DNA of 64,000 nt from a virus (taxonomy: Duplodnaviria > Heunggongvirae > Uroviricota > Caudoviricetes), in the IMG/VR virus record IMGVR_UViG_3300025072_002801; one strand, given 5' to 3'. The position numbers and the translations under genes are program-made. Below, in pieces: positions 13,828-47,590 of this stretch (positions are counted from its first letter, which is position 1; each line of letters starts with the position of its first letter). The notes beneath the pieces are model-generated. The model had not been told where the DNA came from and did not search any database. It saw only the letters and a list, made by a program, of their open reading frames with translations.

Positions 13828-14959
13828 AGTTTCAGAAACGTTAAAAAAATGTGCGGCGGATACAGGTTTTGTTAGAGAGGTCTTTGATGATACTAAGGCT
13901 CCAGTGAATGCGGAGGACGTAATAGTAATTCCATTCTTTGGCGACATTCGTTCAACATTTATTTTTTCAACATTATTGTGTAAGCGAATGAAGGAATTGA
14001 ATAGTTCCAAATATGTTGTTGTAGCCACATGGCCAGGACATAAGGGACTGTATCCATATGCTGACGAATGTTGGTCGCTTGCTAACATGGATAAGGTTGA
14101 GGAGTTGTACAATTCTTCTGATGGGTTTGAGAATTCTGATAGAGCGGTATACCTCATGTATCGGGTTTTGAACAGATACTTTACAGTTGTTGGTCATGAG
14201 GATATTGAGAAGTATTACCATAATGGTTTGACAACAGCATTTTGGAAAGATTTTAAATTTGTTGAGAGATCATTCCCAAGTGTCCCATCAGTGACTATTT
14301 TGGGCGAAAAATTTAATTCTGAGCTTCAAAAGCGACCTGGATTCAAGGTTTTTATATGTCCGTCCAAATGGATAACGTACTGGAATCAGGGGAAATTAGT
14401 AAAAGCTCGTTGTCCTAAGGATTTTTGGGTAGGATTAGTTTCCCATCTTTTGGAGAATGAATTTGTTCCAATAATACATTTTGGACCTCTTGTTCATGAC
14501 ATATCTGATGTATTTGTTGAGAAATGCGTTTATTTGAACGAGCCAGACATTACTAAGGTTATGGGTGCAATGCGAGCAATTGGGTGTACTTTGGATGTAT
14601 TTTCTGACTTTTCTCGTATATCTATGATGGCTAGATGTCCTTATGTAAGTGTAACAGAGAGAGGAAAGCATGCTAGTGCTAAGGATTTCGAGTTGGATGG
14701 TCTGTGTGGTAAAGGTCTTCCAAAAGAGCATATTTTTTACTTTCCTACTATTATAGATAATAAGCAGTCTGCACATAGCGTTTATGAAATTGCAGCAACA
14801 AGATTAAAAAACTTTATACCTAATATTGATTTTGGAGCCTTGCCTCCTGCATCCGAATCTAGCATCGAAGTATCTTACGACGAAGTTAAGCGGGTGAAGA
14901 GGAAAAAGCGAGGAGCAAGATTTATAAGAATTCCTATAGAAAGGGAACTTGATGGCTAA
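13820..14959 (+). CDS. GT9-family glycosyltransferase paralog
   Basis: Same length and architecture as 12646-13827 (VIVIPFFGDIRSTFIFSTLLCKRMKE...YVVVATWPGHKGLY; C-terminal KVFICPSKWI...GAMRAIGCTLDVFSDFSRISMMARCPYVSV); start overlaps the previous stop. Confidence 0.55.
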   Translation: MNKVSETLKKCAADTGFVREVFDDTKAPVNAEDVIVIPFFGDIRSTFIFSTLLCKRMKELNSSKYVVVATWPGHKGLYPYADECWSLANMDKVEELYNSSDGFENSDRAVYLMYRVLNRYFTVVGHEDIEKYYHNGLTTAFWKDFKFVERSFPSVPSVTILGEKFNSELQKRPGFKVFICPSKWITYWNQGKLVKARCPKDFWVGLVSHLLENEFVPIIHFGPLVHDISDVFVEKCVYLNEPDITKVMGAMRAIGCTLDVFSDFSRISMMARCPYVSVTERGKHASAKDFELDGLCGKGLPKEHIFYFPTIIDNKQSAHSVYEIAATRLKNFIPNIDFGALPPASESSIEVSYDEVKRVKRKKRGARFIRIPIERELDG

Positions 14960-15215
14960 CGTAACACGAGTTAGAGTCGTTCAAAAATATCAACTGTCAG
15001 ATAGAGCATCCAAAGAAGAGAAAGAAAGAGCCTTTAAGGGACTGTTTACTGCGTTCAAGAGACAAGTGACTGACGCTGGCATTTTGCACTTGTGCAAGAA
15101 GTATGAGCGATATGAGAAGCCTTCTGAAAAGCGTCATCGCAAGAAGAAGGAAAAGAACTTGGAGCGAATCAAGGCTCTCAGAGGCACAGATCCACGTAGT
15201 AAAAAGAAGAAATAA
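14949..15215 (+). CDS. rpsU: Ribosomal protein bS21
   Basis: ERAFKGLFTAFKRQVTDAGILHLCKKYERYEKPSEKRHRKKKEKN parallels E. coli S21 ([43 protein letters not shown]); very basic C-terminus. Confidence 0.7.
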   Translation: MMANVTRVRVVQKYQLSDRASKEEKERAFKGLFTAFKRQVTDAGILHLCKKYERYEKPSEKRHRKKKEKNLERIKALRGTDPRSKKKK

Positions 15216-15226
15216 GGGAGGCTTTA

Positions 15227-15616
15227 ATGGCTAATACGAAAATTGTATCTTTCTCTATCCGTCCAGAGCAACACGACTTGCTAAAGAAAGAGAAAACTGT
15301 TAAAAAGGCAAATAGTGTGTCTGAAGTCATTCGTGGCATCGTAGACGACCATTTGAGTGGTTCTAATGTTTCTTTGGAATCGGACTTGAAAGATCAGGTG
15401 GATGAGGTATCATTAAGTAAGGGCGTTTCATCTAACGAAGTTGTGAACGACTTATTGAAGCGATACCTTGCGCCCGATGAAAAAGGTAGAAGCGTTGTAA
15501 AAGGCGAATCTCTTCCCGTTGTATTGAAGATACCATCGGAACTTAAAGGAAATCGTAAAGAGCTTGCGGAATGGCTGCAAGCACGAGCGCAATTCATCTT
15601 GAACAAATTGGCCTAA
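15227..15616 (+). CDS. Hypothetical protein, possible ribbon-helix-helix DNA-binding N-terminus
   Basis: MANTKIVSFSIRPEQHDLLKKEK...SEVIRGIVDDHL resembles an Arc/CopG-type RHH; good RBS GGGAGG upstream. Confidence 0.45.
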   Translation: MANTKIVSFSIRPEQHDLLKKEKTVKKANSVSEVIRGIVDDHLSGSNVSLESDLKDQVDEVSLSKGVSSNEVVNDLLKRYLAPDEKGRSVVKGESLPVVLKIPSELKGNRKELAEWLQARAQFILNKLA

Positions 15617-15618
15617 AA

Positions 15619-16158
15619 ATGCCCACAGAAAATGAGCGGAAGTTTGTTTTAAAGTTTTGTGAAGAAGAGATAAAAGCAATTGCTGATAAGAAGCTGGACA
15701 TTCATCAAGGGTATCTTGACTCTGGATCGTCACGGATACGGCATACTGAGATTATGCTTGAAAAGTCTCATAAGTTTGTTTTTACATTCAAAAAAAGAGT
15801 TAATGGTCGCGTTGTTGAAATCGAAAGAAGTATTTCTCAACGCGACTTTCTTGATTTGTGGGACTCCACACATTCTAAACTTCGAAAGATAAGATATAAC
15901 GTCAAATCTGAAGGATATGTTTGGGAAGTTGATTTTTTTAAAACTTTGAATGATAAAAAAACATACTTTGCCATGGCAGAAGTTGAGTTGCCAGAAGGCA
16001 AAGAGATGCCAGATTCAGTTCCTTCTTTCATTAAGGATAATCTCTTGTATCTGGTTGATGAAGGTGATGATAGATTCAGTAGCAAATCTCTTTCAGATCA
16101 TTCTCATGCAGATGATATGCTTGAACTTATAAAGGTGTATAAAGATGGAGCTAGTTGA
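15619..16158 (+). CDS. CYTH-domain (triphosphate tunnel metalloenzyme) protein
   Basis: N-terminal E-x-E-x-K signature (TENERKFVL), RIRHTEI, beta-rich repeats and the acidic VELPEGKEMPD motif typical of CyaB/ThTPase-like CYTH domains. Confidence 0.6.
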   Translation: MPTENERKFVLKFCEEEIKAIADKKLDIHQGYLDSGSSRIRHTEIMLEKSHKFVFTFKKRVNGRVVEIERSISQRDFLDLWDSTHSKLRKIRYNVKSEGYVWEVDFFKTLNDKKTYFAMAEVELPEGKEMPDSVPSFIKDNLLYLVDEGDDRFSSKSLSDHSHADDMLELIKVYKDGAS

Positions 16159-16618
16159 TTGCCAAGACATTCCCAGGAAAGAAGATGTTGAAAAGCTCTT
16201 TAAAGAAGACGCTGATGTTGTAAGGATGTACAATAATTTCATAAAAATGAAAAAGCTGTGTGAAGAAACCAAAGGAGTGGGGCTTTCTGCTGTTCAAGTG
16301 GGGTTGCCACTTTCTATGTTTGTGGCTAAACTTGATGCTGGGTGGCGTAATTTTTTAAATTGTGAATACGAACGAGCGCCAGACGCCAAGGAAATTAAAT
16401 CACTAGAGGGATGTTTGTCCTTGCCAGGAAGAGGGTTTCGTGTCTCAAGACATGATAGGATCGTGGTGAGAGGGCAAGATATGATTGTGGACGCAGACAT
16501 TCTTGTTAGAGATATAGAGGAAGAATTGACTGGGTTTGATGCAATCGTTGTTCAGCACGAAATAGATCATCAAAATGGAATTTTGATTTCTGACATTGGA
16601 ACCGAAGTAGATACTTAA
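16145..16618 (+). CDS. def: Peptide deformylase
   Basis: All three PDF motifs present: GVGLSAVQVG (GxGxAAxQ), EGCLSLPG (EGCLS) and QHEIDHQNG (HExxH). Confidence 0.85.
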   Translation: MELVDCQDIPRKEDVEKLFKEDADVVRMYNNFIKMKKLCEETKGVGLSAVQVGLPLSMFVAKLDAGWRNFLNCEYERAPDAKEIKSLEGCLSLPGRGFRVSRHDRIVVRGQDMIVDADILVRDIEEELTGFDAIVVQHEIDHQNGILISDIGTEVDT

Positions 16619-16631
16619 AAAAGAGAGAACA

Positions 16632-16910
16632 ATGGCTTTATCTAAAAAACAAACAGAAGATATTTGTCTTCAGACTTTAAGCAACCACAAAACTTGCAGG
16701 TACTTAGCTCAAGATGACCTGGACAGCAAGAAGTTCTATTGCTTGAAGAAGTCTGTTAAAAAGGCAATTGCTGATACAGAAGTAGGTGAATTCATGGGCA
16801 AAATGAAAAAGGCTGGACAAGATCCAAATGCTCAAGGGTTGCCTCTTGGAGACAATTGTACAGGCTATCCAATAATGGGCTATCTAGAACAAGGCTATGA
16901 CGTTGACTAG
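16632..16910 (+). CDS. Hypothetical protein
   Basis: 92-aa ORF with AGAGAAC RBS; no domain. Confidence 0.45.
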   Translation: MALSKKQTEDICLQTLSNHKTCRYLAQDDLDSKKFYCLKKSVKKAIADTEVGEFMGKMKKAGQDPNAQGLPLGDNCTGYPIMGYLEQGYDVD

Positions 16911-19994: not shown

Positions 19995-21300
19995 GATATG
20001 CTAAACTAAAAGAAAGACGTGATGGGGTGAACTGCCCAACTAATCGTTGAACTTCATGCTTCATAGACAATTGGTTATTGCTAACTCTTACATCGTCTCC
20101 ACATGTGTAATCGACTGTCCCAGCCGATGTGTTTTAGTTTAATCCTTCATCAAGAATGTTTTTTGCTGCGTTTAAGTCACGATCTAATTCATGACCATTG
20201 GCGCAAGTCCATTTTCTATCTGAAAGCTTTAACTCTTGATTTATCCAACCACAAATATTACATGTTTTACTGCTTGGGAAAAATCTATTTATTTTAACTA
20301 CTTGCCTATCATTCCATTCCGCCTTGTAAGACAGATATTGAATAAATGTTCCCCAACTAGCATCAGAAATATGTTTTGCTAATTTGTGATTTTTAACCAT
20401 ACCTTTAACATTTAAGTCTTCGCAACAAATTATATCATAATCGCAAATTAATTTATTTGATATTTTGTGAAGATTGTCATGACGACAATTGGCAATTTTT
20501 TCATGAATTAAAGCAACTTTTTTCTTTTGCCTTAAATATAAATTACTGTCTTTTTGCTTTCTGCTTAAATGTTTTTGTGCCGTAGCTAATTCCTTTTCAT
20601 GCTTTTTTAAAAATCTATGATTCTTAAACCGCATATCATCTGATGTAATTATGAGTTCTTTTAGTCCTAGATCAATTCCAACTTTTTGATTGGTTTTCTC
20701 TTTAGGTTGATATTCTTCTTTGACTAAAATTGAAACATAATACTTGCCAGACTGTGTTTTTGAAATTGTAAAATTTCTTATCTCTCCATTAATTTCCCTG
20801 TGTTGCTTAACTTTGATTCCATTTTTAAATTTTGGAAAATAAATTTTACCGTTTTCCAATTTAATGGATTGTGGAACATGAAAACTATTTTTCTTTCTCT
20901 TTGATTTGTAATTTGGAAACTTTGAATTGCCTCTAAAGAAATTAACATAAGCAATTTCAAGATTCCTCAAAGCATGTTGAACAGATTGACTATTCACTTC
21001 TTTCAACCAAGTTAATTCTTTTTTGAGTTTCGTTAAAGATTTTGCTTGAGCAAAATAATTATCTGACTTTTTTTCTTTTTGATATTGTTCTTGTCTTTGT
21101 TTAAGAAAGTGATTGTACACAAATCTCACGCAACCAAAATGCTTGCCAAGAAGGTTTTTTTGGTCTTCGTTAGGGCGTAACCTAAATTTATATGCTCTTT
21201 GTATTTTCTTCACATAATATAATAGTATTGTTATTTACAAAAATAACGATAATTTTGTAAATTTTATAAAATACACAAACTTCACCTAAGAAAGCAGGAA
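19995..21300 (-). mobile_element. IS200/IS605-family TnpB-only insertion element (IS1341/ISC-like); the ends are approximate
   Basis: Single minus-strand tnpB gene, noticeably more AT-rich than its surroundings; non-coding flanks of about 140 bp (3' side, expected omega/reRNA region) and about 90 bp (5' side). Confidence 0.55.
20134..21213 (-). CDS. tnpB: TnpB (OrfB) RNA-guided nuclease-type transposase accessory protein
   Basis: N-terminal MKKIQRAYKFRLRPNEDQKNLL (OrfB_IS605 HTH); RuvC-like GIDLGLKELI; C-terminal CNICGWINQELKLSDRKWTCANGHELDRDLNAAKNI zinc finger / RuvC-III. Confidence 0.85.
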   Translation of the reverse strand: MKKIQRAYKFRLRPNEDQKNLLGKHFGCVRFVYNHFLKQRQEQYQKEKKSDNYFAQAKSLTKLKKELTWLKEVNSQSVQHALRNLEIAYVNFFRGNSKFPNYKSKRKKNSFHVPQSIKLENGKIYFPKFKNGIKVKQHREINGEIRNFTISKTQSGKYYVSILVKEEYQPKEKTNQKVGIDLGLKELIITSDDMRFKNHRFLKKHEKELATAQKHLSRKQKDSNLYLRQKKKVALIHEKIANCRHDNLHKISNKLICDYDIICCEDLNVKGMVKNHKLAKHISDASWGTFIQYLSYKAEWNDRQVVKINRFFPSSKTCNICGWINQELKLSDRKWTCANGHELDRDLNAAKNILDEGLN

Positions 21301-21325
21301 AAGGAAACTGATTGCTAAATAAAGT

Positions 21326-21874
21326 ATGGATTTAAATTTTAGAACATGGTTTGATAGTCAAGACAAGAATGAATCGAGTGCTTTTACTCGTTCGAGAAGA
21401 CAGTTTGCATTGGGCTTAGGTCCAGCACTTCCTGACGCTGCCCTTCATTCTCGTTCAACTTGTCCTCCAGGCGAACTTGAGGCAATCAAGAAGAACAAGA
21501 AAAAGAAGAAGAAGAAAGTAAAAAAAAAAGTAGTTAAAGAAGAGAACGACATTGATAAATGGCTATCAGCAGTTGATGATCTCAAGCGTGACATGGATGA
21601 ACTCGGCAAAGAAAAGCCTGAGGACGAAGAAGATATAGATCCAGAAGAAGACGAAGACGGTATAGAAGACGAAGACATTCCAGCCGACGATGCCGACGAT
21701 GCCGACGATGCTGATGATTCTGAGGAAGAAGAAGATGAAGATCACGAAGATAATCTTCTTACCCAAATAAAAGGTCAATCGCCAGAATCACCAGAAATGC
21801 CTGATGATCTAGATTCTAAATTAAAGAGTGCTTTCAAAACAGGCGATGAAAGCGAAGAAGACGATGAACTATAA
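21326..21874 (+). CDS. Hypothetical highly acidic protein with a Lys-run
   Basis: KKNKKKKKKKVKKKVVKEE followed by poly-D/E (DDADDADDADDSEEEEDEDHED); contains an A10 homopolymer (about 21518-21527) and a 12-bp x3 gacgatgccgac repeat. Confidence 0.5.
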   Translation: MDLNFRTWFDSQDKNESSAFTRSRRQFALGLGPALPDAALHSRSTCPPGELEAIKKNKKKKKKKVKKKVVKEENDIDKWLSAVDDLKRDMDELGKEKPEDEEDIDPEEDEDGIEDEDIPADDADDADDADDSEEEEDEDHEDNLLTQIKGQSPESPEMPDDLDSKLKSAFKTGDESEEDDEL

Positions 21875-22200
21875 TGTTGGATTATATTGAAAGAATCGTC
21901 TATTCATTCATGTGGCTTGTAATCGGAGCCGTTTCTGCAATTGATACTTATTGGTCAGTTGAATTAGGTGAATCTCTCTACGCTGACGAAATGAATCCAG
22001 TGGGTCGTTTAATTATGTCCTTGGATGGTGGCGGAGTGGCTTTATTTATGGGACTCAAATTTATGGGTACTGTCTTTGTTTTAGGCTACTTTGTTTACAT
22101 CTTCTCTAAATCGAAGAACTTTGCTTGGTCTACCATAGTTCCTATATTTCTTCTGCAACTTATGCTTCTTGTGTACCTGTATACGGGATTTAACTTCTAA
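21874..22200 (+). CDS. Small integral membrane protein (about 3 TM)
   Basis: Hydrophobic stretches VYSFMWLVIGAVSAI, VALFMGLKFMGTVFVLGYFVYIF, IVPIFLLQLMLLVYLY; ATGA overlap with the upstream gene. Confidence 0.5.
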   Translation: MLDYIERIVYSFMWLVIGAVSAIDTYWSVELGESLYADEMNPVGRLIMSLDGGGVALFMGLKFMGTVFVLGYFVYIFSKSKNFAWSTIVPIFLLQLMLLVYLYTGFNF

Positions 22201-22229
22201 GATAACTATATTATTGTTAGGAGTTAAAG

Positions 22230-22973
22230 ATGGATAAGCCAAGTTTCCCAGAGTTTTTAAAAAGTATTGAAGTAGAATCATTTTGGTCGATTTGCCAATT
22301 AAGTGGCAATTACAATGAAATTCCCAAACATTTTGAATTGTATGATTATCAAAAAGACTTGGTAAACGCATATGAAAATGAAGATTTTATAATTCTTAAG
22401 AAGTTTAGGCAAGGAGGGTTTACGACACTATCTGTAGTCTATTCATTGTATCTGTGTTATCTTGGCGAGAAGGATGAAAGTATTTTTCTTGCATTTAATA
22501 TGGATCGTGAAGCATGTTGTGTTGGCAACTTGATTGATAGGTTGATGCAAGGCATTCCAGAAGGAATTATGCCAAACCTTGTTAAACAAACAGATCATGA
22601 AAAGGTGTTCGATAACGGATGTTCAATCTTGTTGTTGTCTTCGCAGTCGGGTTCATTGCGTGGAAGGTCTTTTTCTAGGATTTTTATTGATGAGTCGGCG
22701 TTTCATAGAGATATGGATAATTTTTGGAAAGCAATATATCCATGTATTTCCGAAGGAGGAAAAGTTGTTGTGCAATCTACTCCAAGCGTCCATGATGGAG
22801 GAAGTTGGTTTAAAAAGACTTATTTAGACGCAATGAAATTGAAAAACAAATTTAGAATATTTCATACAAGTTACAAAGAGAATCCACAATACACTCCAGA
22901 ATTCATAGAAACGCTACGATCTAATCTGGGTGACAAAGGATTCAAGCTGGAAATAGAAGCAGAATTTATTTAA
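22230..22973 (+). CDS. Terminase large-subunit ATPase-domain-like protein (T4 gp17 N-terminal-domain-like), stand-alone 247 aa
   Basis: YDYQKDLV / KKFRQGGFTTL / NGCSILLLSSQSGSLRGRSFSRIFIDESAFH / WKAIYPCISEGGKVVVQSTPSVHDGGSWF align with T4 gp17 (YQRDML / SRQLGKTTVV / [30 protein letters not shown] / WLAIQPVISSGRRSKIIITTTPNG). The Walker-A lysine position is Phe, but a Lys lies five residues upstream (lambda gpA-like deviant KxxxxGxxT). Confidence 0.65.
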   Translation: MDKPSFPEFLKSIEVESFWSICQLSGNYNEIPKHFELYDYQKDLVNAYENEDFIILKKFRQGGFTTLSVVYSLYLCYLGEKDESIFLAFNMDREACCVGNLIDRLMQGIPEGIMPNLVKQTDHEKVFDNGCSILLLSSQSGSLRGRSFSRIFIDESAFHRDMDNFWKAIYPCISEGGKVVVQSTPSVHDGGSWFKKTYLDAMKLKNKFRIFHTSYKENPQYTPEFIETLRSNLGDKGFKLEIEAEFI

Positions 22974-23510
22974 ATGTTCCAAATAATCGGAGTAGGCGAA
23001 TTAGGTGGCAATAGAGACAAGTTCACTCGCCTGTACAATAAGAAAGTAGGAAAAGGAAACTGGTTTTGGGGCTTCTGTGCCAAGAAAAACTTGTATTCTT
23101 GGGATATAGGCATGCAATTGTATGAGGATGCCTACTGGAACTACTTTAGAGGTCATAAAGCAGCTTTGAAGGGCGTTGTGAGCTATTCTAACGTCTTTGT
23201 GGAAAGATCCAGTGATGTTGAGTCTGGATTGGACTATCGCACTCAGCAGGGCTATGAGGACCATTATGAGGACATCGCAGTAAGAAGATGCCTCAGGAGA
23301 ATGGGAGTGTGGTTCAAAGGCGAAAAAGACAGGTATTTGAACGTCAATAGCTCCCCATTAAGCTCTCAACTCGTTAAATTCCACCTTCCACACCTTTTGG
23401 ATGAAGGCGAAGATAATTGTGTAGCGTCATGGATATTAAACCATAGAGTTGTTATAATCGCTGACGAACCATCAGACCAACAACAATTAGCAGAGATTCT
23501 AATACGATGA
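22974..23510 (+). CDS. Hypothetical protein (possibly the second part of a split or degenerate terminase)
   Basis: Starts 1 nt after the terminase-ATPase stop; MFQIIGVGELGG loosely resembles an RNase-H-fold strand 1 but lacks the Asp; no confident nuclease motifs. Confidence 0.4.
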   Translation: MFQIIGVGELGGNRDKFTRLYNKKVGKGNWFWGFCAKKNLYSWDIGMQLYEDAYWNYFRGHKAALKGVVSYSNVFVERSSDVESGLDYRTQQGYEDHYEDIAVRRCLRRMGVWFKGEKDRYLNVNSSPLSSQLVKFHLPHLLDEGEDNCVASWILNHRVVIIADEPSDQQQLAEILIR

Positions 23511-25444: not shown

Positions 25445-27070
25445 ATGGCTACTTTATCTGAGTTCTTGATCGAGCGTTTGGAAAACGCAGGGATTAAGCA
25501 TGTGTTTGGTGTACCTGGAGATTATTGCTTAAAGTTTTACGAGCAATTATACAACAGTCCAATTGATGTCATTAACACAACTGATGAAGCACACGCAGGA
25601 TTTGCTGCCGACGCTTATGCTCGTTTGAATGGCGCTGGTTGTGTGTGCGTCACATATAATGTAGGAACTTTAAAATTAGCAAATGCTGTTGCTTGTGCTT
25701 ATGCTGAAAAATCCCCATTGGTAGTGATTTCAGGTTCGCCTGGAGTAGTAGAGCGAAATGATGACATGCTTCTCCATCACACGGTTAGAAGTTACGATTG
25801 TCAAAAAGACGTTTTTAAAAATATAACTTGTGCCAGTACGGTTTTAGATAATCCTGATACTGCTGGATATGAAATTGACCGTGTATTAGGTGAAATGAAG
25901 CATCACAAGCTTCCAGTATACATTGAATTGCCAAGAGATTTGGTAGAAAAGCCTATTACTTACGATGTTTATGGAATTGGCACTCCAAAAATGCAAGAAA
26001 CAGACCCAGAGAACTTGGAAGAGGCTTTGGAGGAGGTTGTTGGCTGGATTGATTCGGCTAAGAATCCAGTCATATTAGCTGGCGTTGAAGTAGCTAGATT
26101 TGGATTAGGAAAGCAACTTTTGAAGTTTGCCGAAAAGGGCAACATACCTATAGCCACAACATTGTTGAGTAAGTCGGTAATTAGCGAGACTCATCCATTG
26201 TTCGCTGGAGTTTATTCAGGCAGCGCAAGTCGTGAAGGGGTTAGTGATCTTGTGGAAGAATCGGATTGTTTAATTATGTTTGGGGTTTTGTTAACGGACT
26301 TAACTCTTAGCTTCAATCCAAAGAGATTTGCCAAGCGACAAACAGTTGCCGTTTCTGTTTCCGAACTTAAAGTTAAAAATCACACATATACAAATGTGTT
26401 GATGACAGATTTTTGCGAGTCTCTATTCAAAGCAGAAGTAAAAGAACGACCCATTGGAGATCTTCCAAAGAAAGCTGTTGTTGAGGATTTTGTTCCTAAG
26501 CCAGATACACCATTGACTACCAAGCGTTTGTTTGAAAAGATAAATGCCATCCTTGACAAGAATATGGCGATACTCGCTGATATTGGTGATAGCCTGTTTG
26601 GTGCATCAGATTTGGTTGTTCATGATTCTAATCAGTTTATATCACCAGCATTTTACACATCCATGGGAGCTTCAATTCCAGGTGCGTTGGGTGTTCAGTC
26701 GTTGAATCCAAAGACAAGACCAATCGTAATTGTTGGCGACGGAGCTTTTCAAATGGCTTGCACTGAGCTAGGAACAATTGTAAAGCGTGGATTGAATCCA
26801 ATTGTCATAGTTCTTAACAATGGCGGATATAATACGGAAAGGCTTATCTTAGATGGCGATTTTAATGACATTCCAGATTGGGAATATGAAAAAATTGTGG
26901 AAATGATCGGTGGAGGCAAAGGATTTAGGGTGGAGACGGAGGAATCTTTAGACTCTGCCATGGATATTGCTCTTGACTCTGACGAACTAACCGTGTTAAA
27001 TGTGTTAGTGGGAAGAGAAGTATCTCCCGCTTTAGAACGCATTACAAGTGGTTTATCTAAACGAATTTAA
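25445..27070 (+). CDS. Thiamine-diphosphate-dependent 2-keto-acid decarboxylase (pyruvate/indolepyruvate/phenylpyruvate decarboxylase family)
   Basis: N-terminal GVPGDY...AADAYAR (PYR domain), central domain, and C-terminal TPP-binding GDGAFQM...NNGGY motif; 541 aa as in PDC/IPDC. Confidence 0.75.
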   Translation: MATLSEFLIERLENAGIKHVFGVPGDYCLKFYEQLYNSPIDVINTTDEAHAGFAADAYARLNGAGCVCVTYNVGTLKLANAVACAYAEKSPLVVISGSPGVVERNDDMLLHHTVRSYDCQKDVFKNITCASTVLDNPDTAGYEIDRVLGEMKHHKLPVYIELPRDLVEKPITYDVYGIGTPKMQETDPENLEEALEEVVGWIDSAKNPVILAGVEVARFGLGKQLLKFAEKGNIPIATTLLSKSVISETHPLFAGVYSGSASREGVSDLVEESDCLIMFGVLLTDLTLSFNPKRFAKRQTVAVSVSELKVKNHTYTNVLMTDFCESLFKAEVKERPIGDLPKKAVVEDFVPKPDTPLTTKRLFEKINAILDKNMAILADIGDSLFGASDLVVHDSNQFISPAFYTSMGASIPGALGVQSLNPKTRPIVIVGDGAFQMACTELGTIVKRGLNPIVIVLNNGGYNTERLILDGDFNDIPDWEYEKIVEMIGGGKGFRVETEESLDSAMDIALDSDELTVLNVLVGREVSPALERITSGLSKRI

Positions 27071-27588
27071 TGTCAAAAATAAAAAAAGATGAAGAAAGTC
27101 GTGTAAACTATCAAATTCGCGCACACAGAGTTTTGGTCATACACGATGGTCAGAAACTCGGAGAAATGCATCCTAAAGATGCTATTGCAAAAGCACAGGA
27201 ATTGGAGTTAGATCTTGTTGAGGTTGCTCCAAATGCAAAGCCTCCTGTGTGTACCATCATGGATTATGGAAAGTGGAAGTACGATCAATCTAAAAAAGAT
27301 CGTTCTTCCCAATCTCACTCTTCAAAGTCTGAAGTTAAAACTGTGAGAATGAGGCAGAACACGGAAGACCATGATGTAGAAACTAAACTTAAGTTAATTA
27401 AAAAGTTTCTAATTAGTGGCAAGAAAGTCCAATTGCAAATAAGAAGCAAAGGACGAGAGCTTGCTCACAAGGATCGTGGTCTGGAAATTGCCAAGCATAT
27501 AATTAAAGAGCTTGAAGAAATTGGCAAGCCAGAAGCTACTCCGCGAATCAATGGCAACGAAGTTAGTTGCCGTATCAACCCTGTGTAA
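27070..27588 (+). CDS. infC: Translation initiation factor IF-3
   Basis: VNYQIRAHRVLVIHDGQKLGEMHPKDAIAKAQELELDLVEVAPNAKPPVCTIMDYGKWKYDQSKK and the C-terminal domain align residue-by-residue with E. coli IF3. Confidence 0.9.
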   Translation: MSKIKKDEESRVNYQIRAHRVLVIHDGQKLGEMHPKDAIAKAQELELDLVEVAPNAKPPVCTIMDYGKWKYDQSKKDRSSQSHSSKSEVKTVRMRQNTEDHDVETKLKLIKKFLISGKKVQLQIRSKGRELAHKDRGLEIAKHIIKELEEIGKPEATPRINGNEVSCRINPV

Positions 27589-38522: not shown

Positions 38523-39905
38523 TTACTCTGGTGTTTCCTCATCCCTGAGTCCTATCAGATCCATGAATTTTCCAGCATTCCCAGATTTAACTTCTTCATT
38601 GATCCATTCACCAGATTCTTTCGCCGCTTCTTTTCTCTTTTCCATTTCTTTTTTTGAAGCAGCACGCTGCGCATCAGATCCTCTTCCAATGTCGCTCAAA
38701 CATGTAAATATATTGTCCCTTAAAACACGTTCATCTGTAACGTTGATGTTTTGCAGGATTATACTTCTCATTGTAGAGCAGTCTTCGCCAGGAGTAGCTT
38801 TTTCTTCTTTTTCTCCACGAATTTTTTGGAGTTTGATTTCCCATTTTTTAAGCATTTGCTTTCCAAACAGTTCATACGCAAGATTCTTCTGAGTTAGATT
38901 TTTATCTTGCCACTTTTTAACTTTGCCAACGGCAAGGTCAATAAGTTCATTTAATTTCGCAGTGATTAGATCTGTCTTCTCCTTGGCATGAGGGAAGTAT
39001 GAGATAATTTCTTCCTCTTCCCCTTCCAGCACTTTTGGAACAAGTCTCTTCATAGACAATTCACCAATGAAGTGATGTTTTTCAACATAGCCTGGATCTT
39101 TGACTTTGACACGTTTCCCTGTATTTCTATCTCGGAAGACGTATCCTTCAAAGTCAGGAGTATCTTTGTTGATTTCATCCATCATTCTTTGAATTTCGCT
39201 TTGATCATCAATGGAATCCCATCGTCGTGGTCTAAAAGCCCCGATACGATCTGCGATTTCATCTAGTTGATCTTCGCAAGACTCTCTGTGCGTTTCTATA
39301 TTTCTTGCTCCCAAGAGATATAGACCGTATTGTTCCTTTTTATACTTTGTCAATACAGCACTTGCTTCATGGATGAATTCAAACACATAGGTGTGTGGCA
39401 TATCTCCTTTATGGAATTTTAAGTCTAAAACATATGTTCCAATCAGAGGCATGAATTCATATCTTTTGCCATAGAAGCTAGTGAGTTGCATTTGCATATC
39501 TTGATCTGAATCAGACACCATTTTTCTGGTGTGCCAATTTGGATTTTTTGCTAGTTCGTTTGGGAAGAACACTCCAACCATCGTGCCGTCCATTTTTTCT
39601 AGCATTTCAGCGTTGGACATATCGACAGGATCAGCGCCTTTTTCTGCCTTGTTCAGAAATCGCACGAATGGGAAGCTGGCGATAAGCGAAAGTGGATCTC
39701 CATTAAAGCCATCGACTTTTCGCACAACCATACCTCTCACTAGACGATTGTATTCGTTTCGTCCACCAGGAGCGTAATTCAGTACCCAGTATTGTCCTTT
39801 ATCTCCCCAATGGATTTCTTGGCGATTTAGCCATTCTGCATCGCCATCAACCAAAGCTTGGATAATAGTGCGTAAATTGTCTTTTTCGACTTGTGTGGTT
39901 TCCAT
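38523..39905 (-). CDS. ATP-dependent RNA ligase (T4 Rnl1-like nucleotidyltransferase)
   Basis: Motif I EKMDGT (KxDG); motif IV EGYVFRD; motif V KVKDPGYVEKHH; N-terminal N-x-W...Y region; Lys/Glu-rich C-terminal tail. Confidence 0.6.
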   Translation of the reverse strand: METTQVEKDNLRTIIQALVDGDAEWLNRQEIHWGDKGQYWVLNYAPGGRNEYNRLVRGMVVRKVDGFNGDPLSLIASFPFVRFLNKAEKGADPVDMSNAEMLEKMDGTMVGVFFPNELAKNPNWHTRKMVSDSDQDMQMQLTSFYGKRYEFMPLIGTYVLDLKFHKGDMPHTYVFEFIHEASAVLTKYKKEQYGLYLLGARNIETHRESCEDQLDEIADRIGAFRPRRWDSIDDQSEIQRMMDEINKDTPDFEGYVFRDRNTGKRVKVKDPGYVEKHHFIGELSMKRLVPKVLEGEEEEIISYFPHAKEKTDLITAKLNELIDLAVGKVKKWQDKNLTQKNLAYELFGKQMLKKWEIKLQKIRGEKEEKATPGEDCSTMRSIILQNINVTDERVLRDNIFTCLSDIGRGSDAQRAASKKEMEKRKEAAKESGEWINEEVKSGNAGKFMDLIGLRDEETPE

Positions 39906-44033: not shown

Positions 44034-44045
44034 GAGGTTTTTAAA

Positions 44046-44882: not shown

Positions 44883-45894
44883 AGTATTGTTGACCGGCGC
44901 TGGTGGTTTTATTGGCGCTCATTGTGTTGAGTATTTTTTAGAGAATACAGATTGGAATTTAGTTTTATTTGATTCCTTTCGACACAAAGGTCTTCATCAA
45001 AGACTGATCGACATAGTTGGCGATCAGCTTTTTGATGAACGTGTTGAAATTCATAAGGTTGATCTGTCTGTTCCAATTCCTGCCCCATTAGAAAATCTAG
45101 TTGCTGGCGATAAGCCAATTGACATGATAATCAATATGGCTTCTAACTCTGCTGTGGAGAGATCTACTCAAGATCCAACTGAATGTTTGAGAAATAATTT
45201 TGATTTGTCAATTAACATGTTGGAATTTGCTCGCAGAATAAAACCAAATCTTTTCATCCAGATTTCTACAGATGAAGTGTATGGTGAAGCACGCCCAGGA
45301 GAGGCACACAAGGAGTGGGATGAAATTATGCCTTCCAATCCTTATGCAGCATCGAAGGCTGCACAAGAGGCTGTGGCGATCTCCTATTGGCGAACCTATG
45401 GAGTTCCTGTTGTAATTACAAATACAATGAACGTAATCGGAGAAGCCCAAGATACAGAGAAGTTTCTTCCAAAAATCATAAAGATGGTAAATGCTGGAAA
45501 GACCATGCCAATTTATGGCGAAAGCATAGACAACATAGGCACGAGGTTTTATTTGCATGCAGCTAATTTTGCTGATGCACTTGTGTTTATTTCTAAAATG
45601 CCTCCAGCCAGCTATGATGGGGGGCATGGAGCCGACCGCCCAGACAGGTACAACATTGTTGGCGATTCTGAATTAAATAACTTGGAATTAGCACAAAAAG
45701 TTGCCGAATCGGTTGGAAAGCCTCTTAAGTGGGAGTTGGTATCTTCAGAATCGGCTCGCCCTGGATATGACCGCAGATATGCTCTGGATGGTCAAAAATT
45801 GGCGCAATTAGGGTGGAAACAGCCTATTTCGTTTGATGAGTCCATTCAAAGGATTGTAAAATGGACATTGGAAAAATCTCATTGGACAGCATGA
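44875..45894 (+). CDS. NAD-dependent nucleotide-sugar epimerase/dehydratase (SDR extended family, dTDP-glucose 4,6-dehydratase-like)
   Basis: LLTGAGGFIGAH Rossmann motif; YAASKAAQE (YxxxK catalytic dyad). Confidence 0.8.
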   Translation: MSRVLLTGAGGFIGAHCVEYFLENTDWNLVLFDSFRHKGLHQRLIDIVGDQLFDERVEIHKVDLSVPIPAPLENLVAGDKPIDMIINMASNSAVERSTQDPTECLRNNFDLSINMLEFARRIKPNLFIQISTDEVYGEARPGEAHKEWDEIMPSNPYAASKAAQEAVAISYWRTYGVPVVITNTMNVIGEAQDTEKFLPKIIKMVNAGKTMPIYGESIDNIGTRFYLHAANFADALVFISKMPPASYDGGHGADRPDRYNIVGDSELNNLELAQKVAESVGKPLKWELVSSESARPGYDRRYALDGQKLAQLGWKQPISFDESIQRIVKWTLEKSHWTA

Positions 45895-45907
45895 GATATT
45901 TTTCTTG

Positions 45908-45936
45908 TTGTCAAATCGACTCATCTCAAGTATGAT
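45908..45936 (+). promoter_or_regulatory. Sigma-70-like promoter TTGTCA-17-TATGAT
   Basis: Exact 17-nt spacer; AAG immediately 5' of the -10 element, as in the other copies. Confidence 0.45.
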
Positions 45937-45941
45937 GTAGT

Positions 45942-46253
45942 ATGTGGATAGCATCATTATTGCCGATAACTTGGATTGCACTTGGAGGACTTTTCCCGTT
46001 TTTTAGAAAAGGGAGAGGAAAGATGTTGTGGTCGATTGTTCATATCTATATTTGTTTGAATGCATCGTTTTTCGCAGCGATTAGCGCAGTATATTATGAG
46101 CGACCAATATTTTTATTCTCCATGTGGATGTTCCTAGCGGGACTTGAAATGGTTAGTTTCAAATACGATCTTCATAACGAAGGTTGGGAAATGAGAAGGA
46201 GATTGAGAAACATGCAATATCGCATTGGGTGGGAAGAGTGGGAAAATGGTTAA
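45942..46253 (+). CDS. Small membrane protein
   Basis: Three hydrophobic helices. Confidence 0.4.
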   Translation: MWIASLLPITWIALGGLFPFFRKGRGKMLWSIVHIYICLNASFFAAISAVYYERPIFLFSMWMFLAGLEMVSFKYDLHNEGWEMRRRLRNMQYRIGWEEWENG

Positions 46254-46611
46254 CATTTTAGAATATCATAATTGCATTTTCGCAACTGCGTTAATTCTTT
46301 TGTTCGTTGGCTTTTTTTTGAAATTCGCATACAATGATGTGATTGCTTTTCAGGTTTTTCATGTCTATGTCTGCATTTTTATGGCGTTTTCAATTACTCT
46401 CAATGAGGTTGTCCAAGATCATACATCATGTCTTGTTGTCGTGTGGTTTTTTTTGTTGTATACAGAGCTTAAACAGTTCAAGGCTTTACTTGACTTAAAA
46501 CAATTATTTTTGGAATTAGAACTTCGTGGATTGAGAGTTCCAGAGCCTATAAGACCAGGAGAAGCTGTTATTAGGATGTTTCAAATAGATGGACCACCAC
46601 GTCCAGTTTAG
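46246..46611 (+). CDS. Small membrane protein
   Basis: Hydrophobic helices; start set at the internal MVNILEY. Confidence 0.4.
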   Translation: MVNILEYHNCIFATALILLFVGFFLKFAYNDVIAFQVFHVYVCIFMAFSITLNEVVQDHTSCLVVVWFFLLYTELKQFKALLDLKQLFLELELRGLRVPEPIRPGEAVIRMFQIDGPPRPV

Positions 46612-46623
46612 AAAGGTTATAAG

Positions 46624-47340
46624 ATGATGAGGAAGATGTTTGCTTGCGCTGATTGGCATTGGGATCATGCCAATATTTTGTTTTACACCAAAAGATTTGC
46701 GTTTATGTCGCAAAGAGAGATAAAAGAAACAAAAGAGGCGGCAGGTAGTGGCAGAAAAAGAGTGAAATACAGTAGGGATACTGTTGAACGAATGAACACA
46801 GCCATTATTGATGATTGCAACTCTAAGGCAGGACCAGAAGACGTTATTTGGAATTTAGGAGATGTTCTTTTTGGTCCAAATGATCCAGATGCGTTTTATG
46901 GCAGGTTGATGGAATTGCGTTCGAGAATAAATTGTAAAAATTTGAACTTGGTTCTAGGAAATCATGACAAAAAATTAGATGTAAGATCCCCACGAAAATA
47001 TCGTTCATTGTCAGAAGATCAGATACATAACGTTTTCAATGAAGTGCATTCCAAGGTGATGATACAGACCTTTCAAGGACAGTATATTTTATGCGACCAC
47101 ACAATGCATTGCATTTGGGAAGGGAACCATAAAGGAATATGGCACTTATATGGTCACAGTCATACAAATGCTGAAGGCATTCGAGAAGAGTGGCTTCCAA
47201 ATGCGAAAATGCTTGATGTCGGTATCGACAATGCGGCACGACTTGGATTAGGATATACAATGTTCGATGTGTCAAATGGGTCATGGCTAAAAGGTTTTAT
47301 GGACAACAAAAAAGGACAAGCAATAGATTGCGTTAGGTAA
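46624..47340 (+). CDS. Calcineurin-like metallophosphoesterase
   Basis: ACADWHWD (DxH), NLGDVLFG (GDxxD), LVLGNHD (GNHD/E), YGHSHTN (GHxH). Confidence 0.7.
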
Positions 47341-47344
47341 AATT

Positions 47345-47590
47345 ATGAATAAGAAAAAAGAAGAAGGAATCGAAATTTCTGGCGTTGTTACAGCAGCAAT
47401 GGGTGGAGATAAATTTAAGGTTGCCGTTAAAGATGAAGAAGGAAACCTAGTTGAAGGACATGAAGTAGTTGCTCATCTCGCAGGAAAAATGCGCAGATTT
47501 TACATCCGAATAGTACCAGGAGATGATGTCAAGGTGGAACTTTCGCCATACGATCTCACTAAAGGAAGAATCACTTACAGGAATAAGTAA
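47345..47590 (+). CDS. infA: Translation initiation factor IF-1
   Basis: [67 protein letters not shown] aligns almost position-for-position with E. coli IF1. Confidence 0.9.

What the first reader, a model, noticed from the sequence alone, without database searches (positions are those of the whole stretch)
14949..47590. Phage-encoded translation-initiation toolkit: IF-1, IF-3, ribosomal protein bS21, peptide deformylase and an initiator tRNA
infC (27070), infA (47345), rpsU (14949), def (16145) and an initiator-type tRNA-Met (62288) are all present. bS21, IF1 and IF3 all act at the 30S initiation step. Established: huge phages and some pelagiphages are known to carry S21 and initiation factors. 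The full combination with PDF and an initiator tRNA in one 64-kb stretch suggests deliberate capture of initiation on phage mRNAs.
Basis: partly seen in the sequence, partly recalled or inferred. Interest (0 to 1): 0.6.

Follow-up and report, generated by a model that had tools for sequence, protein, structure and literature searches.

The report
Huge-phage translation-initiation gene set
This stretch of a very large bacteriophage genome carries intact phage copies of ribosomal protein bS21, peptide deformylase, initiation factors IF3 and IF1 and an initiator-type tRNA, a gene set already described for huge phages and shared with its nearest sequenced relative.

Summary
All four protein genes and the initiator-type tRNA are at the stated coordinates. 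They score above curated family cut-offs and keep their functional residues.

The window is phage. It has a terminase ATPase-domain ORF, PhoH and T4-type RNA ligase genes. About 35 kb is syntenic with the 595-kb uncultured phage LR756511.1. The same IF3 protein occurs on a 389-kb contig.

The combination is not special to this window. LR756511.1 carries all five parts, and a 527-kb IMG/VR contig carries bS21, PDF and IF3 in the same order. Al-Shayeb et al. 2020 already reported IF1, IF3, S21 and PDF in huge phages.

I found no sequence support for selective capture of phage mRNAs. The genes lie in separate units, and phage genes use ordinary Shine-Dalgarno sites and ATG starts.

Three details appear not to have been reported:
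- The IF3 subclade has lost Arg25 and Arg66, which contact the initiator-tRNA elbow in E. coli.
- The lineage's initiator tRNAs keep a 1:72 mismatch through unusual bases (A×C, A×A) and have only two of the three G:C pairs.
- infC is directly followed by def in 11 of 43 IMG/VR phage loci.

Verdict: a new member of a known kind, of modest interest.

The parts
14949..15215 (+). rpsU: phage ribosomal protein bS21. 87 aa from the ATG at 14952. It has a ~15-aa insertion after the first strand and a Lys-rich tail without aromatic residues.
   Evidence: Pfam and TIGRFAM matches. PDB bS21 chains match at E 3e-5. phrog_21469. The insertion is shared by about 100 cluster representatives of 77-105 aa.
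16145..16618 (+). def: short phage-type peptide deformylase, 157 aa. All three catalytic motifs are present; the C-terminal helix is absent.
   Evidence: including phage Vp16 PDF, 5mtc; phrog_2890. 51% identical to the LR756511.1 PDF.
27070..27588 (+). infC: IF3, 172 aa, two domains. The ATG start overlaps the stop of the upstream gene (TAATG). L25, K33 and T66 stand in place of E. coli R25, Q33 and R66.
   Evidence: phrog_9787.
47345..47590 (+). infA: IF1, 81 aa, with a unique 7-aa insertion in the loop between strands 2 and 3.
   Evidence: phrog_30201.
62289..62363 (+). Initiator-type tRNA(CAU). A1×C72 mismatch, G2:C71, C3:G70, A11:U24, G12:C23, and anticodon stem A29:U41, G30:C40, G31:C39. 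No CCA is encoded.
   Evidence: Criteria from PMC1635315 and PMC5389676.
61446..61520 (+). Elongator-type tRNA(CAU), most likely tRNA-Ile2 (lysidine) because of G3:C70.
62900..63344 (+). tRNA-Pro(TGG), tRNA-Trp(CCA) and tRNA-Asp(GTC): the start of a tRNA array.
   Evidence: The relative has 63 tRNAs at the matching position.
12646..14959 (+). Two paralogous proteins (393 and 379 aa) with a GT-B, heptosyltransferase-like fold that head the rpsU-def operon. The 393-aa protein has an invariant CxxC...CxxC motif.
15227..16158 (+). Two small ORFs between rpsU and def: 129 aa, CopG/RHH-like, and 195 aa, unknown. They overlap their neighbours.
16632..16910 (+). 92-aa ORF after def, conserved at 53% in LR756511.1.
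25445..27070 (+). Thiamine-pyrophosphate enzyme, 541 aa. Its stop codon overlaps the infC start. The same arrangement is seen in relative L013.
46624..47340 (+). Metallophosphoesterase directly upstream of infA.
3984..4442 (+). YqeY/GatB-like protein (tRNA-related domain).
   Evidence: PF09424; phrog_1460.
38523..39905 (-). T4 Rnl1-type RNA ligase (tRNA repair).
22230..22973 (+). ORF with a terminase large-subunit ATPase domain: the phage hallmark gene in the window.
   Evidence: Terminase_6N, 40 bits; phrog_2, E 3.5e-26.

Best explanation
SHOWN

- The window is part of a huge phage genome. The exact IF3 protein lies on a 389-kb contig, and the nearest deposited relative is the 595-kb uncultured phage LR756511.1.
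- It encodes intact but divergent phage versions of bS21, peptide deformylase, IF3 and IF1, an initiator-type tRNA and at least four other tRNAs.
- bS21, PDF and IF3 keep their gene order across the lineage at 35-60% protein identity. They are old, vertically inherited phage genes, not recent host captures.

INFERRED

- During infection these products join host 30S subunits and nascent-chain processing as extra or replacement parts.
- bS21 would sit on the platform next to the anti-SD.
- IF1 and IF3 would raise the pool of initiation-competent 30S subunits.
- The initiator tRNA would supply fMet-tRNA. This needs host MetRS, Fmt and the CCA-adding enzyme, because no CCA is encoded and none of those genes is in the window.
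- The short PDF would remove formyl groups from a flood of phage proteins.
- The most likely effect is to sustain bulk initiation and N-terminal processing while host synthesis of these short-lived or limiting factors fails.

Two further inferences concern IF3:
- infC starts with ATG and overlaps the upstream stop codon. It therefore probably escapes the autoregulation that E. coli IF3 exerts on its own AUU start (my own knowledge).
- This IF3 lacks the Arg25 and Arg66 elbow contacts. It may check the initiator tRNA and the start codon less strictly than host IF3.
For: Identity and integrity
- Family scores, motifs and alignments.

Phage origin
- Terminase domain.
- PhoH, RNA ligase, homing endonucleases and a PhageMetallopep gene just upstream of the window.
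- Synteny with LR756511.1.
- 389-kb contig.
- No cellular gene context. rpmI-rplT do not follow infC, and fmt is not next to def.

Lineage conservation
- LR756511.1 has all five parts.
- IMG/VR contig L130 (527 kb) has the order GT393, S21, PDF, IF3, DnaJ.
- Relative L013 has the TPP-enzyme gene overlapping infC in the same way.
- IF3 has six metagenomic relatives at 50-70% identity. Identity then drops to 48% or less, across mixed bacterial phyla.

Ordinary initiation signals
- SD and ATG usage.

IF3 elbow residues
-, read against Singh et al. 2022, PMC9723500.

Published precedent
- PMC7162821 and PMC9723584.
Against: - No expression, ribosome-binding or activity data exist for any of these genes.
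- The host is unknown. The TnpB gene's best cellular hits are Bacteroidota at only 67-77%. The AGG..CCU anticodon stem is the alphaproteobacterial signature. These two hints conflict.
- The PDF scores below the NCBIfam equivalog cut-offs, 69.9 against 103.95.
- The bS21 TIGRFAM score is marginal.
- An Arg at position 23 and a Lys at position 33 of this IF3 could rebuild the tRNA-elbow contact, so relaxed fidelity is not established.
- LR756511.1 keeps R25, Q33 and R66 yet also has an initiator tRNA with two G:C pairs. The two traits are therefore not strictly linked.
Confidence: 0.6

Rival explanations
1. Selective capture. Phage bS21, together with phage IF1, IF3 and initiator tRNA, re-tunes host 30S subunits so that phage mRNAs are initiated in preference to host mRNAs.

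A specific version applies if the host is a Bacteroidia member, whose own bS21 hides the anti-SD. A phage bS21 without the sequestering aromatic residue would free the anti-SD and favour the SD-bearing phage genes.
For: - bS21 sits at the anti-SD, and phage bS21 has been proposed to select phage transcripts (PMC7162821; PMC9723584).
- F. johnsoniae ribosomes that lack bS21 or its C-terminal part gain SD recognition (PMC9976891).
- The window's bS21 has no aromatic residue in its C-terminal tail.
- Half of the phage genes carry SD cores.
- The TnpB gene's nearest cellular relatives are Bacteroidota.
Against: - The phage ribosome-binding sites are plain SD at the canonical spacing, which is what any SD-using host would read. 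No phage-specific leader motif was seen.
- The host is not identified, and a consensus-like TTGACA-N17-TATAGT promoter-like sequence and the alphaproteobacterial tRNA signature argue against Bacteroidia.
- The equivalent of Tyr54 was not aligned against a verified Bacteroidia bS21 sequence.
Confidence: 0.2
2. Counter-defence spare parts. The phage copies are variants that host abortive-infection effectors cannot cleave or modify. Such effectors include nucleases that cut initiator tRNA or other tRNAs, and toxins that act on initiation factors. Translation would then survive the host's defence response.
For: - A T4 Rnl1-type RNA ligase, which repairs cleaved tRNA, is in the window.
- Al-Shayeb 2020 notes genes for ligating tRNAs cleaved by host defences.
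- Chen 2022 suggests that bS21 replacement may counter stalling of phage protein synthesis.
- The relative has a large tRNA array.
- The phage initiator tRNA and IF3 are unusually divergent at conserved positions.
Against: - No defence system that targets IF1, IF3, bS21 or PDF was identified here.
- The divergence may simply reflect long independent evolution in phages.
Confidence: 0.15
3. Cellular origin. The window comes from a small-genome bacterium, a plasmid or a mis-assembled contig, and these are ordinary housekeeping genes.
For: - All four proteins belong to universal bacterial families.
- Metabolic genes (a TPP enzyme, an aldehyde dehydrogenase, an epimerase) and DnaJ are present.
Against: - The window has a terminase ATPase-domain ORF.
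- It is syntenic with a deposited 595-kb phage genome.
- None of the bacterial operon contexts is present, and there are no rRNA or other ribosomal protein genes.
- IF3 is at most 48% identical to any named cellular IF3.
- Almost all genes lie on one strand, with homing endonucleases among them.
Confidence: 0.03
4. Decaying passenger genes with no current function.
For: - The bS21 TIGRFAM score is marginal, and the PDF scores below the NCBIfam cut-offs.
Against: - The reading frames are intact, and the catalytic and binding residues are kept.
- Order and sequence are conserved across relatives at 35-60% identity, which requires purifying selection.
Confidence: 0.02

Closest known systems
Uncultured huge phage LR756511.1 (595,163 bp). 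I infer from neighbouring accessions and matching genome sizes that it belongs to the Al-Shayeb et al. 2020 genome set.
   Same: - Window 12.6-47.3 kb is collinear with LR756511.1 336→293 kb.
- It has the same rpsU-def operon headed by two GT-B paralogues, and the same TPP-enzyme, infC, aldehyde dehydrogenase, DnaJ, PhoH and sigma-factor order.
- It also carries IF1 and an initiator-like tRNA with a 1:72 mismatch, A11:U24 and two G:C pairs.
   Different: - Protein identity is only 30-62%, and there is no nucleotide-level match.
- Its IF1 lies about 146 kb away and lacks the 7-aa insertion.
- Its IF3 keeps R25, Q33 and R66, and its infC start does not overlap the TPP-enzyme gene's stop codon.
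- Its initiator tRNA has A1×A72 and U29:A41 rather than A1×C72 and A29:U41.
Translation genes of huge phages as described by Al-Shayeb et al. 2020 (PMC7162821)
   Same: That paper reports IF1, IF3, rpS21 with extra N-terminal sequence, PDF, tRNAs and tRNA-repair genes, and proposes that they intercept host translation.
   Different: - The main-text passages I searched contain no mention of an initiator tRNA.
- I did not read the whole paper or its supplements, so I cannot say whether the IF3 elbow-residue losses, the infC-def adjacency or this rpsU-def operon are described there.
bS21-encoding phages of Bacteroidetes (Chen et al. 2022, PMC9723584) and phage bS21 in general (Mizuno et al. 2019, PMC6375957)
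   Same: A phage-encoded bS21 is conserved within a phage lineage and is proposed to replace host bS21.
   Different: - In those phages bS21 lies among capsid, protease and terminase genes and keeps Tyr54 or another aromatic residue.
- Here it lies between glycosyltransferase-like genes and def, and its tail has no aromatic residue.
Phage peptide deformylases: cyanophage S-SSM7 PDF (Frank et al. 2013, cited) and Vibrio phage Vp16 PDF (PDB 5mtc)
   Same: A short enzyme with the three PDF motifs and no C-terminal helix. It matches 5mtc at E 1.2e-8.
   Different: - About 32-33% identity to the Vibrio phage PDFs listed.
- It is linked to rpsU, and in other huge phages to infC, which I did not find described.
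Bacterial initiator tRNA-fMet
   Same: - It has A11:U24 and G12:C23, which discriminate fMet tRNAs completely from the other two CAT tRNAs.
- It has G2:C71, C3:G70, A73, R29-G30-G31/Y39-C40-Y41 and no Watson-Crick 1:72 pair.
   Different: - The mismatch is A1×C72 instead of C1×A72. In the 234 bacterial genomes analysed in PMC1635315 the only alternatives reported were A1-U72 and U1-A72.
- The first G:C pair is A:U, as in alphaproteobacteria.

Membership tests
Translation initiation factor IF3 (infC) | N-terminal and C-terminal IF3 domains joined by a Lys-rich linker; score above the equivalog cut-off | tested here: met
   PF05198 94.8 bits, PF00707 83.1 bits, TIGR00168 159 bits against a cut-off of 60.
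Translation initiation factor IF3 (infC) | Conserved C-domain and linker residues: Y70, Y75, R99, K110, R133, H137 (E. coli numbering) | tested here: met
   All are kept in the window and in its six close relatives.
Translation initiation factor IF3 (infC) | N-domain Arg25 (invariant in bacteria) and Arg66 (well conserved), which contact the initiator-tRNA elbow | tested here: not met
   - The window has L25 and T66. All 7 subclade members lack a basic residue at both sites.
- The other 113 database hits have R/K25 in 104 of 108 and R/K66 in 109 of 113.
- Criterion from PMC9723500.
Translation initiation factor IF3 (infC) | Unusual start codon used for autoregulation (AUU in E. coli; my own knowledge) | tested here: not met
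   The ATG at 27070 overlaps the TAA of the upstream gene.
Translation initiation factor IF1 (infA) | S1-like OB fold of about 70 aa with the GKMR..YIRI and KGRI motifs; equivalog score | tested here: met
   TIGR00008 87.2 bits against 61.15. Both motifs are kept, and there is one extra 7-aa loop.
Ribosomal protein bS21 (rpsU) | Match to the S21 profile, including FKR..AG.L...E.YEKPS.KR.RK | tested here: met
   PF01165 41.1 bits against 27. TIGR00030 29.4 against 28.95, which is marginal. PDB bS21 chains match at E 3e-5.
Ribosomal protein bS21 (rpsU) | Incorporation into 30S subunits | not testable with these tools
   This needs biochemistry. PMC9976891 reports that a pelagiphage bS21 enters E. 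coli ribosomes.
Peptide deformylase (def) | Three motifs, G.GL(A/S)A.Q, EGC(L/I)S and HE..H, which provide the metal ligands Cys, His, His and the catalytic Glu | tested here: met
   GVGLSAVQ, EGCLS and QHEIDH are present. Pfam scores 88.9 bits.
Peptide deformylase (def) | Bacterial Def equivalog score, and the C-terminal helix that in E. coli binds the ribosome (the latter is my own knowledge) | tested here: not met
   - TIGR00079 scores 69.9 against 103.95.
- The protein ends 8 residues after the Asp that aligns with E. coli D150, as in short phage PDFs such as 5mtc.
Bacterial initiator tRNA | A11:U24 and G12:C23 in the D stem | tested here: met
   Read directly from the sequence. Criterion from PMC1635315.
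Bacterial initiator tRNA | No Watson-Crick pair at 1:72, with G2:C71 and C3:G70 (formylation determinants) | tested here: met
   A1×C72 is flagged as non-standard by Infernal. The base identities differ from the canonical C1×A72.
Bacterial initiator tRNA | Three consecutive G:C pairs at 29:41, 30:40 and 31:39 | tested here: inconclusive
   - The window has A29:U41, G30:C40, G31:C39.
- The essential middle pair is present.
- The au/GC/GC variant is natural in alphaproteobacteria and sustains E. coli with a slight defect (PMC5389676).
Bacterial initiator tRNA | Formylation by Fmt and use in the P site | not testable with these tools
   This needs an enzymatic assay.
Huge phage lineage of LR756511.1 | Shared gene order and a phage packaging gene | tested here: met
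   28 window proteins have matches in LR756511.1, most of them in collinear order. TerL ATPase domain. Capsid and portal genes were not looked for.

The most novel reading that the evidence does not exclude
This phage lineage may run its own initiation-fidelity regime.

- Its IF3 has a rebuilt or lost contact with the initiator-tRNA elbow: R25L and R66T, with Arg23 and Lys33 gained.
- Its initiator tRNA departs from the bacterial rule at both hallmark sites: A×C or A×A at 1:72, and only two G:C pairs.

Together these could form a partly orthogonal pair that lets phage-programmed 30S subunits initiate under rules that host IF3 would reject. The recurrent infC-def pairing in huge phages would then be a functional cassette that joins relaxed initiation to N-terminal processing.
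Probability: 0.15. Interest if true: 0.65.

Novelty: new member of a known kind. Interest (0 to 1): 0.33.

Why it matters
Phage takeover of translation is usually inferred from gene lists. This case adds a clean, lineage-conserved set of five initiation-related genes with every functional motif intact, which makes them good candidates for complementation and in vitro tests.

The most useful lead is the natural IF3 variant. It lacks the two arginines whose alanine substitution lowers initiation fidelity in E. coli, and a non-canonical initiator tRNA is encoded in the same genome.

If that IF3 really relaxes or redirects start-site and tRNA checking, it would show how a virus changes the rules of initiation rather than only adding capacity. 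It might also offer parts for orthogonal initiation systems.

If it does not, the finding is one more instance of a pattern published in 2020.

Tried and rejected
- A megablast of 24 kb of the window against GenBank phages found nothing.
- An exact 51-mer from infC was not found in IMG/VR. No close relative is deposited in either collection.
- tblastn of bS21 against GenBank phages found nothing at E 1e-3 or better.
- The word-indexed search found only three bS21 proteins. The exhaustive HMMER search was needed.
- Promoter and terminator scans over 11-30 kb gave counts equal to shuffled sequence: 54 against 51.5, and 12 against 12.1. Transcription units could therefore not be defined this way.
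- Sequence searches of the 393-aa and 379-aa operon proteins against the PDB gave nothing, singly or as a profile. Only the fold search placed the 393-aa protein with GT9-type glycosyltransferases.
- Host inference from the TnpB gene was inconclusive. The best hits are 67-77% identical, mostly in Bacteroidota but also in mixed metagenome bins.
- I considered co-evolution of the IF3 elbow changes with the tRNA elbow and rejected it. The window tRNA keeps G18, G19 and the UUCAAAU T loop, as in E. coli.
- I considered strict linkage between loss of R25/R66 and the two-G:C tRNA and rejected it. LR756511.1 has the tRNA trait but keeps the arginines.
- One IF1 hit at 80-90% identity in GenBank phages was not listed among the best rows and was not followed up. 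It is probably the one record whose match covers less than 80% of the query.

Full report
1. OBSERVATION

The ORF list and the profile searches confirm each gene at the coordinates given.

| Gene | Coordinates | Size | Scores (cut-off) |
|---|---|---|---|
| bS21 | 14949-15215 (gene callers use the ATG at 14952) | 87 aa | PF01165 41.1 bits (27); TIGR00030 29.4 (28.95) |
| Peptide deformylase | 16145-16618 | 157 aa | PF01327 88.9 bits (22.8) |
| IF3 | 27070-27588 | 172 aa | PF05198 and PF00707 both matched; TIGR00168 159 bits (60) |
| IF1 | 47345-47590 | 81 aa | TIGR00008 87.2 bits (61.15) |

- ARAGORN and Rfam find five tRNAs at 61.4-63.3 kb, two of them with anticodon CAT.
- All four proteins also match existing phage protein families: phrog_21469, phrog_2890, phrog_9787 and phrog_30201.

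2. ARE THE GENES INTACT?

- PDF keeps GVGLSAVQ, EGCLS and QHEIDH, that is, the Cys, His, His metal ligands and the catalytic Glu. It stops shortly after the last motif, so the C-terminal helix of E. coli Def is missing. Among solved structures it matches bacterial PDFs and the short Vibrio phage Vp16 enzyme, 5mtc.
- IF1 keeps GKMRxxYIRI and KGRI, and has one 7-residue insertion between strands 2 and 3.
- IF3 keeps Y70, Y75, R99, K110, R133 and H137.
- bS21 keeps the FKR...AGIL...YEKPSEKR core and matches bS21 chains from ribosome structures.
- An exhaustive HMMER search found only 217 cluster representatives at E 0.001 or better. Most of the better-scoring ones are 77-105 aa long and align from residue 1.
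- In the alignment of 27 of the best hits, most share a roughly 15-residue insertion after the first strand. This is presumably the N-terminal extension described by Al-Shayeb et al..

3. THE TWO CAT tRNAs

The tRNA at 62289-62363:
- It is closely similar to E. coli tRNA-fMet (sequence recalled from memory) in the acceptor stem, D arm and T loop.
- It has A11:U24 and G12:C23. Silva et al. found these to discriminate fMet tRNAs completely from the other two kinds of CAT tRNA (PMC1635315).
- It has G2:C71, C3:G70 and A73, and a non-standard 1:72 pair that Infernal flags.
- The mismatch is A1×C72, not C1×A72.
- Its anticodon stem is A29:U41, G30:C40, G31:C39. This au/GC/GC type is natural in alphaproteobacteria and some mycoplasmas. 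It sustains E. coli, and the essential middle pair is present (PMC5389676).

The tRNA at 61446-61520 has G3:C70, a marker of tRNA-Ile(CAT). It is not an initiator.

Initiator-like tRNA genes are common in phages. 327 GenBank phage records and 110 IMG/VR stretches match.

4. WHAT THE WINDOW IS

Composition and gene content:
- GC content is 36-42% with a constant positive GC skew, and nearly all genes lie on the + strand.
- The window holds a terminase large-subunit ATPase-domain ORF at 22230-22973 (phrog_2, E 3.5e-26).
- It also holds PhoH, a sigma-70-like factor, a dCMP deaminase, a T4 Rnl1-type RNA ligase, DnaJ, homing endonucleases and a TnpB gene.
- Just upstream of the window lie a DNA polymerase III alpha gene and a PhageMetallopep gene.

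Where the sequence occurs:
- The same proteins occur in ENA, JGI and Logan metagenome assemblies.
- The longest contig with the exact IF3 is 389,237 bp.

Relatives:
- There is no nucleotide-level match in GenBank phages or IMG/VR.
- At protein level, window 12.6-47.3 kb is collinear with 336→293 kb of the 595-kb uncultured phage LR756511.1, at 30-62% identity.
- A JGI contig with a 50%-identical IF3 shows the same order: dCMP deaminase, TPP enzyme, infC, HesB-like gene, DnaJ, dUTPase and glycosyltransferase.
- A 527-kb IMG/VR contig has GT393, S21, PDF, IF3 and DnaJ in the same order.
- The window is therefore a segment of a huge phage of that lineage.

5. HOW THE FIVE PARTS ARE ARRANGED

They do not form one module.

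- rpsU and def lie in a run of overlapping or abutting ORFs at 12646-16910. The run is headed by two paralogous proteins of 393 and 379 aa.
- The same operon exists in LR756511.1.
- The 393-aa protein has more than 900 homologues. The best 120 listed are 52-67% identical and occur on contigs of up to 634 kb.
- Its predicted structure has pLDDT 90 and is a GT-B fold. It is closest to GT9 heptosyltransferases such as WaaC and to the Cys4 protein heptosyltransferase TibC.
- infC starts with an ATG that overlaps the stop of a TPP-enzyme gene (TAATG). The relative L013 has the same overlap.
- infA follows a metallophosphoesterase gene. In LR756511.1 that phosphoesterase is present at the syntenic place, but IF1 lies at 180 kb. 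IF1 has therefore moved or was acquired separately.
- The window IF1 is at most 57% identical to any of the 80 best IMG/VR IF1 loci kept out of 407 relatives. The lengths of those 80 matches show that none has the insertion.
- The tRNAs open an array. LR756511.1 has 63 tRNAs and a tmRNA, mostly at 220-291 kb, next to the syntenic block.

6. IS THE COMBINATION UNUSUAL?

No.

- LR756511.1 has bS21, PDF, IF3 and IF1. It also has an initiator-like tRNA at complement 277952-278024, with A1×A72, A11:U24 and U29:A41, G30:C40, G31:C39.
- A 340-kb IMG/VR contig has a tRNA with the same anticodon arm as the window's and a U1×C72 mismatch.
- Al-Shayeb et al. 2020 list IF1, IF3, S21 and PDF among huge-phage genes and propose interception of host translation.
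- Chen et al. 2022 analyse phage bS21 in detail.

7. TESTS OF THE SELECTIVE-CAPTURE IDEA

I used 75 genes as called in the public assemblies.

- 39 have an SD core of 4 nt or more at -18..-4, against 16% of random positions. 19 have a core of 5 nt or more, against 5%.
- G content peaks at -11..-8.
- Start codons are 65 ATG, 7 GTG and 3 TTG.
- All three stop codons are used.

These are ordinary SD-led initiation signals, and no phage-specific leader motif stands out.

The host remains unknown:
- The TnpB gene's best cellular relatives are Sphingobacterium and other Bacteroidota, at only 67-77%.
- The AGG..CCU tRNA signature is alphaproteobacterial.
- A consensus-like TTGACA-N17-TATAGT promoter-like sequence lies at about 62.09 kb.

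If the host were a Bacteroidia member, a more specific model would apply. The phage bS21 tail has no aromatic residue. Tyr54 of F. johnsoniae bS21 helps to hide the anti-SD, and ribosomes without bS21 gain SD recognition (PMC9976891). A phage bS21 of this kind could therefore favour the SD-bearing phage genes. I could not test this.

8. DETAILS I DID NOT FIND DESCRIBED IN THE PAPERS I CONSULTED

(a) IF3 elbow contacts.
- In E. coli, R25, Q33 and R66 of the N domain touch the initiator-tRNA elbow. [quoted passage not shown]
- The triple alanine mutant allows more initiation with an initiator tRNA that lacks the 3GC pairs (PMC9723500).
- The window IF3 and its six relatives at 50-70% identity all have L25, K33 and T, I, L or S at position 66.
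- The other 113 best database hits have R/K25 in 104 of 108 and R/K66 in 109 of 113.
- Among 44 other phage IF3s, R25 is replaced by a non-basic residue in 17, while position 66 stays basic in 41.
- An Arg at position 23, in 5 of the 7, and Lys33 might partly restore the contact. The effect on fidelity is an inference.
- LR756511.1 keeps all three residues.

(b) The 1:72 mismatch in the initiator tRNA is maintained in the lineage through different bases: A×C, A×A and U×C. The 29:41 pair covaries, A:U or U:A, but is never G:C.

(c) In 11 of 43 IMG/VR loci with IF3, def follows infC within about 100-700 bp. Seven of those 11 contigs are between 194 and 459 kb long.

9. MECHANISM AND VERDICT

What is shown:
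- The genes are intact, conserved across the lineage and phage-borne.

What is inferred:
- The products supplement or replace host initiation components and the deformylase during infection, to sustain high-rate initiation and N-terminal processing.
- infC probably escapes IF3 autoregulation, because it starts with ATG and overlaps the upstream stop codon.
- Initiator checking may be looser.

Selective capture and counter-defence remain live alternatives. A cellular origin and gene decay are effectively excluded.

The finding is a new member of a known kind. The new elements are the IF3 and tRNA peculiarities and the infC-def linkage.

Noticed in passing
window 51448-55916 and 58284-59955: A gene set resembling ubiquitin-like conjugation, on a phage.
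- Prok-E2_D protein at 51448-52071.
- JAB-like 387-aa protein at 54000-55163 (Pfam Prok-JAB 23.9 bits, just under the cut-off).
- ThiF/E1 at 55164-55916.
- A few kb on, three small ORFs with the MIB_HERC2 domain, which I know mainly from eukaryotic E3 ligases.
   Followed up: no
window 12646-14959: Two paralogous proteins of 393 and 379 aa head the rpsU-def operon.
- The 393-aa protein has 936 homologues. The best 120 are 52-67% identical, on contigs of up to 634 kb.
- It has an invariant CxxC...CxxC motif and no Pfam family.
- Its predicted fold is GT-B, closest to WaaC and to the Cys4 protein heptosyltransferase TibC.
What it glycosylates, and why it travels with bS21 and PDF, is unknown.
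   Followed up: partly
IMG/VR loci L010, L146, L149, L152, L155, L156, L159, L160, L161, L163, L164: infC is directly followed by def in 11 of 43 IMG/VR phage loci that encode IF3. Seven of the 11 contigs are 194-459 kb long. This gene pair does not match the bacterial contexts I know (def-fmt, infC-rpmI-rplT).
   Followed up: partly
window 61711-61828; also 63172-63232 and 63345-63365: tRNA-like sequence that the default ARAGORN run and Rfam do not call.
- It has a GAGAGAG/CTCTCTC acceptor-like stem and two T-arm-like hairpins (GGTTCGATTCC and GGTTCGAATCC).
- With its intron option, ARAGORN calls it tRNA-Asp(GTC) with a 24-nt intron.
- Further isolated T-arm-like pieces lie between the later tRNAs.
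   Followed up: partly
window 62087-62225: A consensus-like promoter (TTGACA, 17 nt, TATAGT) is followed by about 100 nt that fold into a long hairpin (-37 kcal/mol) ending in a T-rich stretch, just upstream of the initiator tRNA. This may be a small RNA. A perfect 12-bp G+C-rich hairpin lies at 62853-62884.
   Followed up: no
window 20134-23510: A TnpB/IS605-type gene lies on the minus strand at 20134-21213. About 1 kb downstream is a 247-aa ORF that holds only the ATPase domain of the large terminase. The following 178-aa ORF has no family match. The terminase may be split or truncated here.
   Followed up: no
window 25445-27588; L013 3417-5569: The stop codon of a thiamine-pyrophosphate enzyme gene (acetolactate-synthase-like) overlaps the infC start. 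The overlap is conserved in a relative whose IF3 is 50% identical.
   Followed up: partly
LR756511.1 complement 179588-179661 and 180003-180212; complement 341280-341632: In the relative, a tRNA with anticodon CTA lies about 340 bp from its IF1 gene. ARAGORN labels it Pyl, which means an amber-reading tRNA. The genome also has a tmRNA with tag ANPEFAMAA and a tRNA-Ile(TAT).
   Followed up: no
window 4939-12382: ORFs at 4939-6075, 8557-9594, 10274-11383 and 11567-12382 share short matches to the same PHROG families of unknown function (phrog_13199, and phrog_2771 for the first two). The ORF at 10274-11383 also gives faint Ribosomal_S13_N/S15 hits, below cut-off. They are probably a paralogous family with a repeated short motif.
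   Followed up: no
window 3984-4442, 48119-51379: A YqeY/GatB-like protein, with a domain related to tRNA-dependent amidotransferases, lies 10 kb upstream of rpsU. Two adjacent large SPFH/Band-7 proteins follow infA.
   Followed up: no
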